From the NCBI GenBank assembly GCA_963662405.2, contig CAXXKT010000001.1:1280001-1344000 (forward strand): a stretch of 64,000 nt of DNA, read 5' to 3'. This DNA is from Syntrophales bacterium (GTDB lineage: Bacteria > Desulfobacterota > Syntrophia > Syntrophales > UBA2210). Shown one piece after another: positions 11,253 to 16,275 of this stretch; within the stretch, counting starts at the first letter, position 1; the number at the start of each line of letters is the position of its first letter. The notes below the pieces were generated by a model that was not told the DNA's origin, did no database searches, and saw only the letters and a program-made list of their open reading frames with translations. Both the position numbers and the translations under genes were made by a program.

Positions 11253-12153
11253 CTATCCTTCCGCCCGTTTCAGACACTCCTCCCACCGGTGATTGACCGA
11301 CGCCTGGAGCGTGCCGAGCTGCTCGATGCTCATCTTCTTGAATCTGCTCTGTCGCTCCACGTAATTGACGAGGGGGAGGAGCTTCCCCCGCTCGGCCATC
11401 GTCTTGCTCCTCCCGGTGAAACGGAAGCGGCCATCCTCGATCTCGAAGAGGATAAAAAGCCCCGTCTCCACGGCGAGCTTCCCGATTCGGACCGTATCCT
11501 TTGTGGGATACCCCCACCCGGGGGGGCAGGGTGTGTCGATCTGGATGTACCGGGTTCCCCGTATCTTCTTGGCCTTGACGAACTTGTCGTACAGGTCGAC
11601 CGGGTAGGCGGGGGAGACGGTCGCCAGGTAAGGGATATGGTGCGCCTCCATGATCTTCAGGAAATCCTTCTTGGGGTCCTGCTTCGTCAGGACGGGGGTT
11701 GTCGTGGTAAGGGGCGCCCAGGGGGGTTGCGCCGGAGCGCTGCGTCCCCGTGTTCATGTAGGCCTCGTTGTCGTAGCAGGCGAAGATAAAGTCGGTGTTT
11801 CGCTCGGCCGCACCGCTCAGAGACTGGATCCCGATGTCATAGGTGCCGCCGTCTCCGGAAAGGGCCAGGACGGTGATGTCGGTCTTGTTAAGGGCCCGCA
11901 GGCCGGCCACCATCCCGGCGGCGGATGCCGCGTTCCCGGCGAAGGTGGTATTGAGGGCGGGGACGATGGTCGAGGTAGTGGGGTACAGCCCGTGCAGAAC
12001 ACAGAGGCAGCTCGGGGGGATTCCCACGATCGTGTTTTCGCGCAGTGCTTTGAGGATGTAGCGGTAGGCCAGAGAAAGACCGCACCCCTGACAGGCGCGA
12101 TTTCCCGGGAGGATGTATTCCTTCTCGTTGATCTTGAAGATGGTTTCGTGCAT
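11253..12153 (-). CDS. porB: 2-oxoacid:ferredoxin oxidoreductase beta subunit (TPP-binding), split by a +1 frameshift
   Basis: ACQGCG, GDGGTYDIG...YDNEAYMNTGTQRS; one extra base in the G run at 11711-11714; corrected frame continues GALTTTTP...KKDFLKIMEAHHIPY...PCPPGW. Confidence 0.88.
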
Positions 12154-12157
12154 TATC

Positions 12158-13366
12158 TTATCCTGTGTGGCAATTAAGCCATATCGTTTTGTTGTCCCTG
12201 TCGCCCGCTTCGACCGATGCATAGGCCGCCCGCGCCGCCCCCACCAGTTCGCGGGTCTTGACATCCCGACCCCCCAGCCCCGAGATATGGTCATGGATAG
12301 GGGCCGTGATATCCGTACCGTAGAAGGCGGCCTTCAGGTCGGACGCGATCCCCCCCTCGTACCCGTAACTGATGCACTTTTCGAAGATCGCGATGGCGCG
12401 GGCCTTGGCGAAGGCCCGCCGGACCTCTTTCTTCGGGAACGGTCGGTAGACCCTGATCCCGACGACCCCCGCCTTGATCCCCCCGGCGCGGAGCACGTCC
12501 GCGGCCAAGGTCGCCTCGGTGGCGATTGAGCCCATCCCGGTCAGGATCAGCTCGGCGTCGTCCGTGAGGTATTCCCAGAGCATCCCCCCGTGATCACGCC
12601 CCGTCAGTTTCGCCCAGTCATCGCTTGCCGCGGTGATGGTCTTCGGAGATCTCTCAAAGGCATCCTGCATCTTGTAGCGCATCTCCATATACCCGTCACA
12701 GAGGATCCCCTCCGCGTTTTCCCGGCGCGAGGCAAAGAAGACGGGATTGATCGTCACCGGCTTCTCCGGGGAGAGGGTGGTCTGCGGTACGTAGGGAGGG
12801 AGGTATGTCTTAACCGTCTCTTCCTTCGGGATATCCACCGGCATCATCGTGTGAGAGAGGACGAAGCCGTCGTAACAGACCATCACCGGGAGGTAGACCT
12901 CTTCGGCAATCCGGTACGCCTGGAGAACCGTGTCGAGGATCTCCTGGTTGTCCCGGCAGTAGATCTGTATCCACCCCGTGTCCCGTTGCGAGAAAGAGTC
13001 CTGCTGGTCGTTGAAGATGGACCAAGGAGCCCCGACGCCCCGGTTGACGCAGCACATGACGACCGGGAGGCGGGATCCCGCCGCCCAGTGCAGCTGCTCG
13101 TGCATATAAAGGAGCCCATTGGAACTGGTCGCCGTGAAGACACGGGCCCCTACCGTGGATGCCGAGATGCAGACGGTCAGAGAGGAGTGCTCCGACTCCA
13201 CCCGGACATATTCCGCCTTCAGTTCCCCCTTCTCGACGTATTCGGACAGGACCTCGGCCAGTTTGGTTTGTGGTGTGATGGGGTAGGCCGCGATGACGCC
13301 GGGCCGGGCCAATTTTACCGCCAGGGCCGCCGCCTCGTTCCCCATGATGATGCGGACGTCACTCAT
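12158..13366 (-). CDS. porA: 2-oxoacid:ferredoxin oxidoreductase alpha subunit
   Basis: GNEAAA, AYPITPQT, ESEHS, TATSSNGL, DGFVLSH, GLGGRD. Confidence 0.93.
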   Translation of the reverse strand: MSDVRIIMGNEAAALAVKLARPGVIAAYPITPQTKLAEVLSEYVEKGELKAEYVRVESEHSSLTVCISASTVGARVFTATSSNGLLYMHEQLHWAAGSRLPVVMCCVNRGVGAPWSIFNDQQDSFSQRDTGWIQIYCRDNQEILDTVLQAYRIAEEVYLPVMVCYDGFVLSHTMMPVDIPKEETVKTYLPPYVPQTTLSPEKPVTINPVFFASRRENAEGILCDGYMEMRYKMQDAFERSPKTITAASDDWAKLTGRDHGGMLWEYLTDDAELILTGMGSIATEATLAADVLRAGGIKAGVVGIRVYRPFPKKEVRRAFAKARAIAIFEKCISYGYEGGIASDLKAAFYGTDITAPIHDHISGLGGRDVKTRELVGAARAAYASVEAGDRDNKTIWLNCHTG

Positions 13367-13652
13367 CGATATCCACCTCCCGTACCATCTGTATCGCGTT
13401 GGGGGGGCATTCCTCCGCGCAGATCCCGCATCCCTTGCAGTAGTCCATGTCGATGACCACCGGAATCGTCATGGTGACCACCCCTTCCGGGCAGTAGAGC
13501 CAGCAGAGAAAACAGGCCGCTTTTCCCTTGATCTCGGGGATACATTTGGTCGGATCGATCACGGGACGCAGGTCCCGCCACTCTCCCGTTCTCCCCGCTT
13601 CGCCGGGGGCCGGCGTGCAGACCCCCGATATGTTGGTGTCAATCTTTTCCAT
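13359..13652 (-). CDS. porD: 2-oxoacid:ferredoxin oxidoreductase delta subunit (2x[4Fe-4S])
   Basis: TGEWR, CFLCWLYCPE, YCKGCGICAEECP. Confidence 0.92.
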   Translation of the reverse strand: MEKIDTNISGVCTPAPGEAGRTGEWRDLRPVIDPTKCIPEIKGKAACFLCWLYCPEGVVTMTIPVVIDMDYCKGCGICAEECPPNAIQMVREVDIDE

Positions 13653-14220
13653 TACCCTCCCAGACCTCGGTTCTGTCAAAGGCCGTTTTGATGGCCTGAA
13701 AATTAAAGGCCGCTTTATTTCGCGGCATCTTTTGCTTGATCCCCTCTTCGATGCTATCGAGGGAAACCAGCCCCGATGCCCGGCAGAAGGCCCCGAGGAG
13801 CGGCGTGTTCACGATCGGGGTCCCGCCCATGCTGAGGTGATGTTCCCACGCAATCCGCGCTGCATCGACCGTCGCAACGGAGAAGCACTCCCGGACCCCG
13901 AGCTGTTCCGGATTCAGGGGGGTGTTGATGATAACGATTCCGTTTTTCCTGAGCAGCTCCTCACCGGTCGCCGCCGCAAGGAGGGACGGGTCCAGAACGA
14001 CGGCGATGTCGGCCGGTGCGACCTGTGAGAAGGTCCTGACCGGCTCGTCCGCAATTCGTGTCGAAGCGGTCAGGGGCGCACCCCTGCGCTCCGGGCCGAA
14101 GGTGGGAGCAGAGGTGACACCCCGGAAGCCATGAATATAGGCCGCCTCGGCCAGTATCTGGGCCGCCAGGACCACGCCTTGGCCACCCCTTCCGTGCCAT
14201 AGTATCTCGTGCATTGCCAT
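13639..14220 (-). CDS. porC: 2-oxoacid:ferredoxin oxidoreductase gamma subunit
   Basis: HGRGGQG, FGPERRGAP, NTPLLGAF. Confidence 0.93.
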   Translation of the reverse strand: MAMHEILWHGRGGQGVVLAAQILAEAAYIHGFRGVTSAPTFGPERRGAPLTASTRIADEPVRTFSQVAPADIAVVLDPSLLAAATGEELLRKNGIVIINTPLNPEQLGVRECFSVATVDAARIAWEHHLSMGGTPIVNTPLLGAFCRASGLVSLDSIEEGIKQKMPRNKAAFNFQAIKTAFDRTEVWEGNGKD

Positions 14221-14233
14221 TGGATTTCCTCAC

Positions 14234-14268
14234 AAAAAAGGCCATGAAGCATTCGCCCATGGCCTTTT
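14234..14268 (-). terminator. attenuator terminator upstream of the oxidoreductase operon
   Basis: Minus strand AAAAGGCCATG-GGCGAATGCTT-CATGGCCTTTTTT, ending 13 nt before the porC ATG. Confidence 0.85.
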
Positions 14269-14288
14269 GAACTCTCTCTGCTGTTGCG

Positions 14289-14393
14289 TTACACTCCAGT
14301 GACGACAGGCCGCGGGCGGATTATGAGCCCGCTAAGGACGAGGCCGAGCAAGAACAGTAGATTCAGCAGCACTGCGTACAACCACCCTGTCAT
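14289..14393 (-). CDS. leader peptide (34 aa) of a putative Leu/Val/Ile attenuator: MTGWLYAVLLNLLFLLGLVLSGLIIRPRPVVTGV
   Basis: AAGGA SD, ATG at 14393, TAA at 14289-14291; 10 Leu, 5 Val, 2 Ile; followed by antiterminator and terminator. Confidence 0.8.
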   Translation of the reverse strand: MTGWLYAVLLNLLFLLGLVLSGLIIRPRPVVTGV

Positions 14394-14504
14394 CGGAGAT
14401 ATTCCTTTCAAGAAGTGCTACCCCTCCTACACCGGGTGCGTCGAAAAGTCAACGGAAAATGTACGGGTTCCGCTGTCGCATGGAAAATACCGGGCGGGGA
14501 AGGG

Positions 14505-16142
14505 TCATTCGGTAGCCAGATGCCGCATCTCCGCCTCCAGCTTTGCGAGGAGGGGAGGGAAGGTGCGGGGGTTGAGCGCCGACAGCGGAATAGCATCGAA
14601 GCGACGGCAGACGTTATCCAGGATTGCCTCACCGTCGGAGAAGAGATCGATCTTGTTGAAGACGCGCAGATACCGTTTCCCCTGCAGATCAAGTTCCTCG
14701 AGGATCCGGTCCACGGCGTGGATCTGTTGCTCAAAAGAGGGGTTGCTCACATCGATGACGTGGAGGAGGAGATCGGCTTCCTCCAGTTCCTCCAGGGTTG
14801 CGCGGAAGGCGGCGGCAAGCTCTTTCGGGAGATTCCGGATGAATCCCACCGTGTCCGTGATGATCGCCTCCCGATCCCGGGGAAAGCGGAGTCGCGAACT
14901 CTTCGGGTCGAGGGTGGCGAAGAGGAGATCCTCGGTCAGAACACGGCTCTGGGTCAGGGCGTTGAGGAGGGTCGACTTTCCCGTATTGGTATAGCCGACA
15001 ATGGAGATGACGGGGAGCCCCTGTTTGCGCCTGAGTCGACGTCGCTGACCCCTCCCCTTCCGGACATTTTTCAGTTCTTTCTTGAGACGTCCGATTCGTT
15101 CACGGACCCGACGACGGTTGATCTCAAGCTTTGTCTCCCCCGGTCCGGTTCCCCCGATTCCCCCGGTGAGACGGGACATGGCCGTGTTTTTGGTTGCGAG
15201 GCGCGGGAGGAGGTATTGAAGCTGGGCGAGTTCGACCTGGATCTTTCCCTCACGGCTGTGGGCGCGGCGGGCGAAGATATCCAGTATCAACTGGGAGCGG
15301 TCGATCACCTTCAGATCGGTAAAATCGGTGATGGAACGGATCTGGGCGGGGGAGAGCTCGTGGTCGAAGATCAAAAGTCCTGCCCCGATCTGGAGCGCCC
15401 GTATGACGACGTCGGAGAGCCTTCCCCTCCCCATCAGGTACCGGGGGTCGTAGTCATGCCGGTGCTGAACGACGGTGTCGAGAACCTCCACGCCGGATGA
15501 ACGTGCCAGTTCGCGCAGTTCTCCCAGTGAAGCCTTGCTATCGAACAGGGGATCAACGGCAACCCGTATCAGGATGGCCCCTTCGCTCGTACCCACCTTC
15601 CGCGTCCGTCCGCTCCGTGCGAACTCTTCCTCCAGGGCCTGGATGAATTCACTGAAATTCAGATCCACCGTGAAGACGGGGGTCGGGTCCATCAGGAGCC
15701 AGTAAGTACCCCCGGGATTTTCGGGGATGAGATGCGCCGAGTGAATCCTGCCGGGGAGTCCGTCCTGGTCGACCTCGATTGCCGAGACCATATCGAGTCG
15801 CAGGAGGGCAAGATCGGTGAGGTCGTCCTCGGTCAATTCCTCACCGCCGAGGTGGGTGTGGATGAGGCGCAGCCCCTTGAGGCGTGTTGAGGCTGACCGA
15901 ATTCCATCGAGAGCGGGGATAACGATCTGCCGGTGGTCACCGATGATGACCCGTGCGATCTCTCCCCGGCGGCTGACCAGGATGCCGATCTGTCGGTTCA
16001 CCCGGCGAGACAGCGCCGCGATCTCCCGTGCCATCTCGGTCGTCACGATCCTTTCGGGGGGCACCCTTCTGCGATAGAGACGCTGTATGTCCTTCATGTC
16101 CGATGGCTTGATGCCGTCGGTGTTTCCCTGGATTTTTTCTAT
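14505..16142 (-). CDS. hflX: GTPase HflX (long form)
   Basis: LIHTH N-terminal domain, LILDIFARRA, GPGETKLE, GYTNTGKST, FATLD, DTVGFI, NKID; start placed at ATA 16142 (see findings), alternative ATG 16244. Confidence 0.93.
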   Translation of the reverse strand: MEKIQGNTDGIKPSDMKDIQRLYRRRVPPERIVTTEMAREIAALSRRVNRQIGILVSRRGEIARVIIGDHRQIVIPALDGIRSASTRLKGLRLIHTHLGGEELTEDDLTDLALLRLDMVSAIEVDQDGLPGRIHSAHLIPENPGGTYWLLMDPTPVFTVDLNFSEFIQALEEEFARSGRTRKVGTSEGAILIRVAVDPLFDSKASLGELRELARSSGVEVLDTVVQHRHDYDPRYLMGRGRLSDVVIRALQIGAGLLIFDHELSPAQIRSITDFTDLKVIDRSQLILDIFARRAHSREGKIQVELAQLQYLLPRLATKNTAMSRLTGGIGGTGPGETKLEINRRRVRERIGRLKKELKNVRKGRGQRRRLRRKQGLPVISIVGYTNTGKSTLLNALTQSRVLTEDLLFATLDPKSSRLRFPRDREAIITDTVGFIRNLPKELAAAFRATLEELEEADLLLHVIDVSNPSFEQQIHAVDRILEELDLQGKRYLRVFNKIDLFSDGEAILDNVCRRFDAIPLSALNPRTFPPLLAKLEAEMRHLATE

Positions 16143-16275
16143 GACTGCCTCCTCCCCGCAGCACCTTGTATCATAAAACGGAGCGAGAAGACATACGTTA
16201 CCCGGTAAAGAGCCCCGGGAAGGGGTCCCCCGGGGCTCTGCCATTTTTATTCGTGCGTCGTAGATACACTCGCCC

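What the first reader, a model, noticed from the sequence alone, without database searches (positions are those of the whole stretch)
14234..14393. Leu/Val/Ile leader-peptide attenuator in front of a 2-oxoacid:ferredoxin oxidoreductase operon
Seen in sequence (minus strand): AAGGA SD, then a 34-aa ORF MTGWLYAVLLNLLFLLGLVLSGLIIRPRPVVTGV (10 Leu, 5 Val, 2 Ile, using CTA, TTG, CTT and ATA codons). The 3' part of the ORF (14307-14321) is complementary to the terminator 5' arm and loop (14251-14265): 12 of 15 positions Watson-Crick plus one G-U, which is an antiterminator. A GC hairpin with T6 (14234-14268) ends 13 nt before porC. Established knowledge: this layout matches ribosome-mediated attenuators of the leu, ilvGMEDA and ilvBN operons. 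Inference: the por operon is derepressed on branched-chain amino acid starvation. I know of no described attenuator on a ferredoxin oxidoreductase operon, but I could not search.
Basis: partly seen in the sequence, partly recalled or inferred. Interest (0 to 1): 0.9.

Follow-up and report, generated by a model that had tools for sequence, protein, structure and literature searches.

The report
Leucine leader-peptide attenuator before oxidoreductase operon
A tiny leucine-rich gene and a set of switchable RNA hairpins in front of a four-gene ferredoxin oxidoreductase operon look like a classic ribosome-read leucine sensor, which suggests that this enzyme helps the cell make leucine.

Summary
The 34-codon ORF (14393-14289, minus strand), the hairpin with T6 (14268-14234) and the proposed antiterminator are all present.

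They are also conserved. A covariance model built from 20 such leaders hit 135 of 151 genomes of the same order. Of the 110 best hits, 68 lie before porC homologues, 40 before leuA homologues and 2 at contig ends.

All 68 por leaders keep an ORF that runs into the antiterminator strand. Median Leu content is 26%, against Val 7% and Ile 3%. Terminator, antiterminator and anti-antiterminator share strands and covary.

One conserved RNA word is read in different frames in por and leuA leaders. That stretch is therefore conserved as RNA, not as peptide.

My reading is a classical Leu-specific attenuator, not a Leu/Val/Ile one. No in vivo data were available: no RNA run was listed.

The same genome puts a Trp leader before iorAB. 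This supports, but does not prove, that the enzyme makes the leucine 2-oxoacid.

This scan noted the same por attenuator earlier in other Syntrophales-type genomes. I found no paper on it.

The parts
14447..14452 (-). -35-like box TTGACT
   Evidence: TTGAC(A/T) is conserved in all 11 leaders compared, followed by a 17-nt spacer and TAnnnn. The simple promoter scan did not list it.
14424..14429 (-). -10-like box TAGGAG (weak). The inferred transcription start is near 14417.
   Evidence: Position and T1/A2 are conserved. The start site is inferred, not shown.
14403..14408 (-). Shine-Dalgarno AAAGGA of the leader ORF, 9 nt before the ATG
   Evidence: GAAAGG(G)A is conserved in the window's genus and a sister genus.
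14289..14393 (-). Leader ORF of 34 codons with 10 Leu codons
   Evidence: An ORF is kept in 68 of 68 por-type leaders.
14325..14381 (-). Block holding the 10 Leu codons (L5 to L23), the proposed ribosome stall sites
   Evidence: In 68 leaders the Leu codons lie a median of 62 to 11 nt before the antiterminator strand.
14386..14393 (-). Strand 1a, AUGACAGG (start codon plus 5 nt). It pairs with 14309-14302.
   Evidence: RNAalifold consensus. Helix pairs in 91.2% of cells, with column 36/202 CG:47 UA:9. Duplex -16.1 kcal/mol and present in the MFE of the full leader.
14327..14332 (-). Strand 1b, GCGGGC. It pairs with GCCCGC 14317-14312 as a local anti-antiterminator.
   Evidence: Folds. Relatives have other local hairpins at the same place (GGUGGG/CCCACC, GACGCGG/CCGCGUC).
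14302..14321 (-). Strand 2, the 3' end of the ORF. It pairs either with strands 1a/1b or with strand 3.
14251..14265 (-). Strand 3, the 5' arm and loop of the terminator. It pairs with strand 2 (antiterminator) or strand 4 (terminator).
   Evidence: 13 of 15 positions pair. The antiterminator pairs in 92.7% of 1103 cells in 69 sequences.
14234..14268 (-). Intrinsic terminator: A4, stem, loop, stem, T6
   Evidence: -18.8 kcal/mol. 99.3% paired, with 6 of 10 pairs changed on both sides.
13639..14220 (-). porC (gamma subunit)
   Evidence: PF01558 E 1e-36. TIGR02175 167 bits, cut-off 81.1.
13359..13679 (-). porD (delta subunit, 2x[4Fe-4S])
   Evidence: TIGR02179 87.4 bits, cut-off 60.05.
12158..13366 (-). 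porA (alpha subunit)
   Evidence: PF01855 and PF17147. Below every equivalog cut-off, POR and VOR alike.
11253..12160 (-). porB (beta subunit). It reads in two frames in this assembly, with the frame change near 11711.
   Evidence: The family match covers only profile positions 5-147 of 300. Sequence read. One public contig lacks a base at 11711. Relatives have an intact porB of 298-310 aa.

Best explanation
This is a ribosome-mediated, leucine-specific transcription attenuator controlling porCDAB.

**Proposed mechanism**
- Transcription starts at a promoter about 25 nt upstream of the leader ORF. This is inferred from a conserved TTGACT-17-TAGGAG.
- The por genes have no room for a promoter of their own. 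The terminator ends 13 nt before porC, so they are expressed only by readthrough.
- **Leu-tRNA plentiful:** the ribosome runs to the stop codon and covers strand 2 (14321-14302). Strand 3 then pairs with strand 4, the terminator forms and transcription ends at the T6.
- **Leu-tRNA scarce:** the ribosome stalls in the Leu-codon block (14381-14325). It hides strand 1b and leaves strand 2 free. Strand 2 pairs with the terminator's 5' arm, and RNA polymerase reads into porC.
- **No translation:** strands 1a and 1b hold strand 2, and the terminator forms.

**Shown and inferred**
- Shown by sequence and comparison: all the parts, their conservation, and their competing pairings.
- Inferred: stalling, termination, and the response to leucine.

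**Further inference (about even odds)**
The enzyme works in the synthase direction. It would make 4-methyl-2-oxopentanoate (or 2-oxoisovalerate) from a branched acyl-CoA, CO2 and reduced ferredoxin, giving a second route to leucine.
For: **Anatomy in the window**
-. With the 5' RNA masked to 14328 and arm 4 unmade, the MFE is the antiterminator (-25.9 kcal/mol).
- The full leader's MFE contains AUGACAGG:CCUGUCGU, GCGGGC:GCCCGC and the terminator (-62.7).

**Conservation**
- The DNA search hit 5 of 7 same-genus genomes over the whole leader.
- Model R1 hit 135 of 151 genomes of the order, 108 of 117 high-quality ones and 58 of 62 genera.
- Of the 110 best hits, 68 lie before porC homologues, 40 before leuA homologues and 2 at contig ends.

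**Coding signal**
- 68 of 68 por leaders keep an ATG/GTG ORF that reaches strand 2.
- 64 of 68 have at least 7 Leu, 49 of 68 have LLL, and all six Leu codons are used.
- In 66 of the 69 aligned rows, the frame read from the aligned start column stops between strand 2 and the terminator. That is 3-12 nt past strand 2 in all but a few of them.

**RNA signal**
- Antiterminator: 16 pairs, 92.7% of cells paired against 36-55% when slid. 6 pairs are changed on both sides, and 0 of 500 shuffles reach this.
- Terminator: 99.3% paired, with 6 of 10 pairs compensatory.
- Start-codon helix: 91.2% paired.
- Column 202 pairs with column 36 in one state and column 276 in the other. Column 276 pairs with 311 in the terminator, and the changes agree three ways.

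**RNA rather than peptide at the 3' end**
- The word GTTTTTAG is read in frame 0 in 44 of 45 por leaders and in frame 2 in 16 of 17 leuA leaders.
- One por leader (L119) stops before it.

**Calibration in relatives**
Leaders sharing the same terminator stem carry codon runs that match the gene downstream:
- Leu runs before HMGL-like LeuA in 14 loci.
- Trp runs before TrpE or TrpD.
- Tyr/Phe runs before DAHP synthase.

**Own genome**
Attenuation is used before trpE, cimA-leuA, a DAHP-synthase-like gene (homologous to a Pfam-typed one) and iorAB.

**Leader and operon travel together**
- Four of five model-negative genomes checked have only 40-44% identical PorC paralogues.
- The fifth has an orthologue with a shorter, diverged LLL leader plus terminator.

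**Enzyme role**
- A Trp leader precedes iorAB in 8 of 9 orthologous loci.
- The genome has 10 POR_N genes, including a 1194-aa PFOR.
- The operon holds only the four por genes, in conserved synteny, in 5 other genomes.
Against: - No transcript data: no RNA run was listed for this DNA, so premature termination is unshown.
- The spacer as a whole folds no better than shuffles (z -0.47).
- The simple scan listed no promoter and not this hairpin.
- With the finished RNA and a stalled ribosome, the terminator state (-29.6) is slightly more stable than the enforced antiterminator (-26.5). The switch must therefore be kinetic.
- Alignment A2 was fitted by the model to the terminator and start-codon helix. 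The antiterminator columns were derived from one member (L136). Both inflate pairing percentages against the slid controls.
- Most antiterminator pairs vary on one side only. Kin are not independent.
- A purine-rich stretch pairs with the Leu-codon block (helix 2, 83.7%). Part of the CUN richness could therefore serve RNA structure.
- Four of 68 leaders have fewer than 7 Leu.
- The substrate is unresolved. The alpha, beta and gamma subunits score alike against POR and VOR models and reach no equivalog cut-off.
- porB is out of frame in this assembly.
Confidence: 0.82

Rival explanations
1. The attenuator is real, but the enzyme is an ordinary pyruvate synthase or pyruvate oxidoreductase (or a broad 2-oxoacid enzyme). 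In this reading leucine control only tunes the supply of pyruvate and acetyl-CoA for the canonical leuABCD route. There is no reductive carboxylation of isovaleryl-CoA.
For: - The best family scores for the alpha subunit are to archaeal PorA (426 bits). POR and VOR models score almost alike.
- The operon carries no CoA ligase, transferase or aminotransferase.
- A canonical leuA is present in the genome.
Against: - The genome already has a 1194-aa PFOR and 8 further POR_N genes.
- Control is by Leu alone, not by Ala or Val, which also derive from pyruvate.
- The parallel Trp leader before iorAB (8 of 9 loci) fits 'each oxidoreductase is governed by the amino acid whose 2-oxoacid it handles'.
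Confidence: 0.35
2. The ORF encodes a small hydrophobic membrane peptide with its own terminator, and por expression is unrelated to its translation.
For: The peptide is hydrophobic and long enough for one membrane helix. No family matched it.
Against: - The terminator ends 13 nt before porC, so por has no separate promoter.
- The conserved 3' part is read in two different frames in por and leuA leaders. It is untranslated in L119.
- Residues other than Leu are poorly conserved.
- Sister leaders with the same terminator carry Trp, Tyr/Phe or Ala runs that match their operons.
Confidence: 0.03
3. The leader is a ligand- or tRNA-binding RNA (a riboswitch or a T-box-like element) and the ORF is incidental.
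For: The helices are conserved and covary. Part of the Leu-codon block is itself base-paired.
Against: - No Rfam family matched at E up to 10.
- An open frame of 30-41 codons, with start and stop in fixed register to the helices, is kept in 68 of 68 leaders.
- Leu is kept through synonymous codon changes.
- No conserved unpaired pocket or specifier-like loop was seen in the alignment.
Confidence: 0.04
4. The hairpin is simply the terminator of hflX (or a shared two-way terminator), and the rest is chance.
For: hflX ends 237 nt upstream on the same strand. No other terminator was seen between them. The hairpin is flanked by A4 and T6.
Against: - A promoter-like box and the ORF lie between hflX and the hairpin and are conserved with it.
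- The same leader precedes porC where the upstream gene differs (loci L012 and L010).
- The antiterminator pairing is conserved.
Confidence: 0.03

Closest known systems
Enterobacterial leu operon leader (leuL; Rfam RF00512 Leu_leader). Its properties are recalled from textbook knowledge, not from a call.
   Same: A short Leu-rich leader ORF, an intrinsic terminator before the first structural gene, a competing antiterminator that involves the ORF's 3' end, and a further pairing that blocks the antiterminator when nothing is translated.
   Different: - No sequence or structure match to RF00512.
- The Leu codons are spread over about 19 codons rather than forming one short run.
- One anti-antiterminator strand is the start codon itself.
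- The regulated operon encodes a ferredoxin oxidoreductase, not leuABCD.
Leaders of leuA homologues in the same order (loci L161, L175-L241, found with the same model)
   Same: The same covariance model detects them (40 of the 110 best hits). They have the same terminator stem, the same CGUCGUUUUUAGG antiterminator word and a Leu-rich ORF.
   Different: The shared RNA word is read in another frame, giving RRPSFLG rather than SPVVFR. Their downstream gene is an HMGL-like synthase. G000 itself has no such leuA leader: its cimA-leuA operon has an Ile/Thr-rich leader.
Trp-leader attenuator before iorAB in this genome and relatives (G000:C1 about 2,014,700)
   Same: A classical leader with a terminator placed before a 2-oxoacid:ferredoxin oxidoreductase, with codons matching the amino acid whose 2-oxoacid the enzyme family handles.
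   Different: A WWW run instead of Leu codons, a two-subunit IOR-type enzyme, and a different terminator sequence in G000.
Four-subunit POR/VOR enzymes of archaea and Thermotogae (NCBIfam TIGR02175/TIGR02179 subfamily)
   Same: Gene order gamma-delta-alpha-beta and the same domain set. The gamma and delta subunits pass the subfamily cut-offs.
   Different: No equivalog cut-off is reached for POR, VOR, phenylglyoxylate or oxalate enzymes. The substrate is open.

Membership tests
Ribosome-mediated leader-peptide transcription attenuators (trp, leu, his, ilv, thr, pheA class) | Short translatable ORF with SD and start codon between the promoter and the first structural gene | tested here: met
   AAAGGA, 9 nt, then ATG at 14393. 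An ORF is kept in 68 of 68 por-type leaders.
Ribosome-mediated leader-peptide transcription attenuators (trp, leu, his, ilv, thr, pheA class) | ORF enriched in codons of the regulating amino acid | tested here: met
   10 of 34 codons in the window. Median 26% Leu, with LLL in 49 of 68 leaders. Val and Ile are not enriched.
Ribosome-mediated leader-peptide transcription attenuators (trp, leu, his, ilv, thr, pheA class) | Intrinsic terminator between the leader ORF and the structural gene | tested here: met
   -18.8 kcal/mol hairpin with T6. 99.3% paired with compensatory changes. Termination itself has not been observed.
Ribosome-mediated leader-peptide transcription attenuators (trp, leu, his, ilv, thr, pheA class) | Antiterminator mutually exclusive with the terminator, whose 5' strand a translating ribosome can cover | tested here: met
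   In 66 of the 69 aligned rows the frame from the aligned start stops between the antiterminator strand and the terminator, mostly 3-12 nt past that strand.
Ribosome-mediated leader-peptide transcription attenuators (trp, leu, his, ilv, thr, pheA class) | Anti-antiterminator (1:2 pairing) that restores termination without translation | tested here: met
   Start-codon helix 91.2% paired, with column 36/202 covarying. Local GCGGGC:GCCCGC in the window. The alignment was fitted to this helix.
Ribosome-mediated leader-peptide transcription attenuators (trp, leu, his, ilv, thr, pheA class) | Promoter upstream of the leader and none between terminator and gene | tested here: inconclusive
   TTGAC(A/T)-17-TAnnnn is conserved, and only 13 nt separate the terminator from porC. 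However, the scan tool listed no promoter and no start site has been mapped.
Ribosome-mediated leader-peptide transcription attenuators (trp, leu, his, ilv, thr, pheA class) | Readthrough rises when the cognate charged tRNA is scarce | not testable with these tools
   No RNA run was listed for this DNA. This needs Term-seq or reporter assays.
Rfam RF00512 Leu_leader | Match to the family's covariance model | tested here: not met
   cmscan of 13900-14900 at E up to 10 gave only four chance-level hits to unrelated families.
T-box leaders and riboswitches | Match to a known aptamer or T-box model; regulation independent of translation | tested here: not met
   No Rfam hit. The conserved frame argues for translation.
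2-oxoacid:ferredoxin oxidoreductase, pyruvate/2-ketoisovalerate family (four-subunit) | Gamma, delta, alpha and beta subunits with POR, 2x[4Fe-4S], POR_N/PFOR_II and TPP-binding domains | tested here: met
   (TIGR02175 at 167 bits against 81.1; TIGR02179 at 87.4 against 60.05). The beta subunit is split by a frame change in this assembly.
2-ketoisovalerate (VOR) or pyruvate (POR) oxidoreductase equivalogs | Score above an equivalog cut-off that would fix the substrate | tested here: not met
   Alpha subunit: PorA_Arch 426 against 550, PRK08367 361 against 625, PRK08366 357 against 646.

The most novel reading that the evidence does not exclude
In Syntrophales-type anaerobes, several 2-oxoacid:ferredoxin oxidoreductase paralogues are not catabolic enzymes. 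They are amino-acid 'synthases' run in reverse, each wired to a leader-peptide attenuator for its own product: Leu leader to porCDAB, Trp leader to iorAB.

If so, the leader peptide predicts the substrate of an otherwise untypable enzyme. It also reveals a regulated salvage route from volatile fatty and aryl-acetic acids to amino acids.

In addition, attenuators for at least four amino-acid classes in this phylum share one terminator stem (GGCCAUGGG...). This points to spread of a common attenuator module rather than independent invention.
Probability: 0.4. Interest if true: 0.75.

Novelty: new member of a known kind. Interest (0 to 1): 0.6.

Why it matters
Leader-peptide attenuators are among the few regulatory elements whose signal can be read directly from sequence. 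Here that signal is leucine, and it sits on an operon that annotation pipelines call 'pyruvate ferredoxin oxidoreductase'.

This gives a concrete, testable functional assignment: the synthesis of the leucine 2-oxoacid by reductive carboxylation, a reaction known from old rumen physiology (recalled). The assignment applies to an enzyme conserved across an order of syntrophic anaerobes that matter in digesters and sediments.

It also shows how codon runs in leaders can be used to sort the many oxidoreductase paralogues of anaerobes by substrate.

I found no paper describing an attenuator on such an operon. The full-text searches were made, and read passages of PMC545781. Subscription journals are not covered.

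Tried and rejected
- **RNA evidence.** The look-up of sequencing runs listed no RNA holder, so expression and transcript ends could not be examined.
- **Rfam.** Nothing useful at E up to 10.
- **Simple promoter/terminator scan.** It listed no promoter and missed the hairpin because of its loop rule.
- **Whole-spacer folding z-score.** Uninformative.
- **Literature.** Seven full-text searches and passages of PMC545781 gave nothing on attenuators before ferredoxin oxidoreductases or on amino-acid attenuators in these taxa.
- **Other oxidoreductase operons in G000.** I looked upstream of the other POR_N operons for leaders. None was convincing, apart from a possible small ORF before the large PFOR.
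- **A failed call.** One search failed because my coordinates spanned a stop codon. I read the DNA directly instead.
- **Crude leader classification.** The rule-based classing of the 117 hairpin loci misfiles some leuA leaders as Tyr/Phe. I use it only as 'roughly 80 of 117'.
- **C-terminal peptide motif.** I considered an arrest-peptide role for the conserved RPVV/PVVFR motif. I rejected it because the same RNA is read in another frame in leuA leaders.
Full report
**1. What is there**

All coordinates are on the minus strand. hflX (16244-14505; TIGR03156 at 430 bits) is followed by these elements:
- a TTGACT box (14452-14447), a 17-nt spacer and TAGGAG (14429-14424)
- AAAGGA (14408-14403)
- a 34-codon ORF (14393-14289)
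- 20 nt of spacer
- a hairpin flanked by A4 and T6 (14268-14234)
- 13 nt holding GAGGAA
- porC at 14220

The genes after the hairpin are the gamma, delta, alpha and beta subunits of a pyruvate/2-ketoisovalerate-family ferredoxin oxidoreductase. The operon ends against a convergent waaA.

**2. Is it more than chance?**

Folding energy alone does not say so. The spacer's z-score is -0.47, and the simple scan tool listed neither a promoter nor this hairpin. Conservation does say so.

- A DNA search of 40 relatives found the whole leader in 5 of 7 same-genus genomes. It found the 3' half, or the hairpin alone, in other genera and families.
- In all 11 loci where the match lay before a porC homologue, I saw the same sequence of parts: TTGAC(A/T)-17-TAnnnn, a 33-38-codon Leu-rich ORF, the hairpin, then porC.
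- A covariance model built from 20 distinct leaders hit 135 of 151 genomes sampled from the order. That is 108 of 117 high-quality genomes and 58 of 62 genera.
- I fetched the 110 best hits. 68 lie directly before a porC homologue, 40 before a leuA homologue, and 2 at contig ends.
- By my reading of the handle table, the 68 por cases come from 15 of the 24 families sampled.
- Of five model-negative genomes checked, four have only 40-44% identical PorC paralogues. The fifth has an orthologue (58% identical) with a shorter, diverged leader (…ELLLQGNLAL…) and a terminator.

**3. Translated, and leucine-specific**

- All 68 por leaders keep an ATG or GTG frame that reaches the antiterminator strand.
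- Leu is 25.7% of residues (median 26% per peptide, range 7.5-40%), against Val 7.1% and Ile 3.1%.
- 64 of 68 have at least 7 Leu, 66 have LL and 49 have LLL. All six Leu codons occur.
- The Leu codons lie a median of 62 to 11 nt upstream of the antiterminator strand.
- In 66 of the 69 aligned rows the frame from the aligned start stops between that strand and the terminator, mostly 3-12 nt past the strand. A ribosome at the stop codon therefore covers the strand, and one stalled on Leu codons leaves it free.
- Within the window's genus, Leu positions change between CTT, CTG and TTG while staying Leu.

**4. The 3' end of the ORF is conserved as RNA, not as peptide**

- por leaders end …SPVVFR… and leuA leaders end …RRPSFLG…. 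Both are translations of the same word, CGUCGUUUUUAGG.
- GTTTTTAG is read in frame 0 in 44 of 45 por leaders that have it and in frame 2 in 16 of 17 leuA leaders. 18 por and 18 leuA loci lack the exact 8-mer, and 5 of each have it without a Leu-rich ORF across it.
- One por leader (L119) has its stop codon before this word and still keeps it.
- This removes the arrest-peptide and small-protein readings for that part.

**5. The competing structures**

*Terminator.* 10 pairs, 99.3% of cells paired, and 6 pairs changed on both sides, for example U-A in 60 rows against C-G in 8.

*Antiterminator.* It pairs the ORF's 3' end with the terminator's 5' arm and the A-rich stretch before it.
- 16 pairs, with 92.7% of 1103 cells paired against 36-55% when slid.
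- 6 pairs are changed on both sides, and 0 of 500 shuffles reach the observed values for the three main measures.

*Anti-antiterminator.* RNAalifold itself proposed a long-range helix between the start-codon region and the antiterminator strand. It is 91.2% paired, with C-G in 47 rows against U-A in 9 at one pair.

*Shared columns.* The same column (202) pairs with column 36 in one state and with column 276 in the other. Column 276 pairs with 311 in the terminator, and the substitutions agree in all three.

*Caveats.*
- A2 was aligned by a model that contains the terminator and the long-range helix.
- I derived the antiterminator columns from one member.
- Related sequences inflate shuffle tests.

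*In the window itself.*
- If 14335-14329 is free, GCGGGC:GCCCGC forms instead.
- The untranslated full leader folds into AUGACAGG:CCUGUCGU, GCGGGC:GCCCGC and the terminator (-62.7).
- With everything transcribed, the terminator state (-29.6) and the antiterminator state (-26.5) are close. The choice must therefore be kinetic, as in the classical cases (recalled).

**6. Calibration**

By a crude rule, about 80 of them carry a small ORF with an amino-acid run just upstream. Pfam typing of the first downstream ORF pairs up as follows:
- Leu runs with HMGL-like synthases (14 loci) or POR gamma
- Trp runs with TrpE, TrpD, an IOR-like protein and a UbiD-like protein
- Tyr/Phe runs with DAHP synthase, an aminotransferase and a beta-eliminating lyase
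- Ala runs with class I/II aminotransferases (7 loci)

G000 itself has the following leaders:
- a WWW leader before trpE
- an ITTIIIS leader before cimA-leuA
- a YWFSYFYF leader before a DAHP-synthase-like gene
- a WWW leader before iorAB

In this lineage, codon runs in leaders track the pathway downstream. That is the hallmark of ribosome-read attenuation.

**7. What the enzyme may do (inference)**

- The operon holds only the four por genes. Its synteny (hflX, leader, porCDAB, convergent waaA, rpe) is kept in five other genomes.
- Family models cannot tell POR from VOR.
- G000 has ten POR_N genes, including a 1194-aa PFOR. A specialised role is therefore plausible.
- The best clue is the parallel with iorAB. 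Its alpha subunit scores 642.6 bits against a cut-off of 650.9. It carries a Trp leader in 8 of 9 orthologous loci found in 61 genomes.
- If each enzyme is governed by the amino acid whose 2-oxoacid it handles, the Leu-controlled one would make 4-methyl-2-oxopentanoate from isovaleryl-CoA by reductive carboxylation. That reaction is known from rumen bacteria (recalled, no paper read here).
- The rival is a pyruvate synthase tuned by leucine. I put the first at about 0.45 and the rival at 0.35.

**8. State of the operon in this assembly**

- porB reads in two frames, and the family match stops at profile position 147 of 300.
- The DNA near 11711 (…GCCCCTTACC…) gives GA-P then TTTTPV… in the next frame.
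- One public contig of run X2 (depth 2.3, possibly the source sample) lacks one base at 11711. X1 has no cover there.
- Relatives have an intact porB of 298-310 aa.
- An assembly error or a strain variant is more likely than a dead gene. The evidence is thin.

**9. Known or new**

- Mechanistically this is a textbook attenuator.
- It does not match Rfam's Leu_leader.
- I found no paper on an attenuator before a ferredoxin oxidoreductase. Subscription journals were not searchable.
- Earlier agents of this scan reported the same Leu leader before porCDAB in other genomes, and Ile and Met/Cys leaders before other oxidoreductases. Those are unchecked notes. I repeated the order-wide search independently and agree with them.
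I did not look up the frame-shifted reading of the shared RNA word, the shared terminator stem across amino-acid classes, or the porB frame change.

**10. Verdict**

- It is a new member of a known kind.
- Its interest is moderate to high, for what it says about the enzyme.

Noticed in passing
window 11700-11720 (porB, minus strand): porB changes frame near 11711. A public contig (run X2, depth 2.3) lacks one base there, which would restore the frame. Relatives have an intact porB of 298-310 aa.
   Followed up: partly
G000:C1:2014680-2017165 (locus L247/L248): A Trp leader (…NWWWC…) with a terminator lies directly before iorA-iorB. WWW leaders occur in 8 of 9 orthologous iorA loci found in 61 genomes of the order. 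The upstream gene ends like an aryl-acetate-CoA ligase, a resemblance I recall rather than tested.
   Followed up: partly
loci L015-L131 (genome-contig scan): The same terminator stem (GGCCAUGGG…CAUGGCC-U4+) follows leaders with Leu, Trp, Tyr/Phe or Ala runs. They occur in Syntrophales, Desulfuromonadales, Desulfobacterales and Syntrophorhabdus MAGs, in roughly 80 of 117 loci by a crude rule. Why one stem is shared is unexplained.
   Followed up: partly
L022, L028, L048, L051, L054, L060, L061: Poly-Ala leader ORFs (6-9 Ala in a row) with a terminator before class I/II aminotransferase genes in Desulfuromonadales-type MAGs. This is a candidate alanine attenuator.
   Followed up: no
L052, L077; L058; L062; L056, L064: Other pairings of leader and gene:
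- a Phe-run leader before family III CoA-transferases
- a Trp-run leader before a UbiD-like enzyme
- a Tyr-run leader before a beta-eliminating lyase
- leaders before class Ib (Trp/Tyr) tRNA synthetases
   Followed up: no
G000:C3:185100-187070: In this genome leuA follows a second HMGL-like gene (cimA-like). That operon has an Ile/Thr-rich leader (…LITTIIISGLLIG…) with its own terminator. The only leader found by the Leu-leader model R1 in G000 is therefore the one on por.
   Followed up: partly
G000:C1:2550600-2550760 (minus strand), upstream of the 1194-aa PFOR: A 28-codon ORF rich in Val and Ala, followed by two tandem terminator-like hairpins, lies about 200-360 nt before the large PFOR gene. 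It may be another attenuator.
   Followed up: no
window 14505-16244 (hflX): HflX here has an extra N-terminal region of about 220 residues before the HflX domains, which start at residue 223. No family match covers it.
   Followed up: no
G000:C1:499225-499251 (minus strand): A similar hairpin (GCCAUGGG…CCCAUGGC-U6) lies 54 nt before a 301-aa ORF that looks DapA-like to me (not typed with any family tool), with a 30-codon ORF upstream that has no obvious codon run.
   Followed up: no
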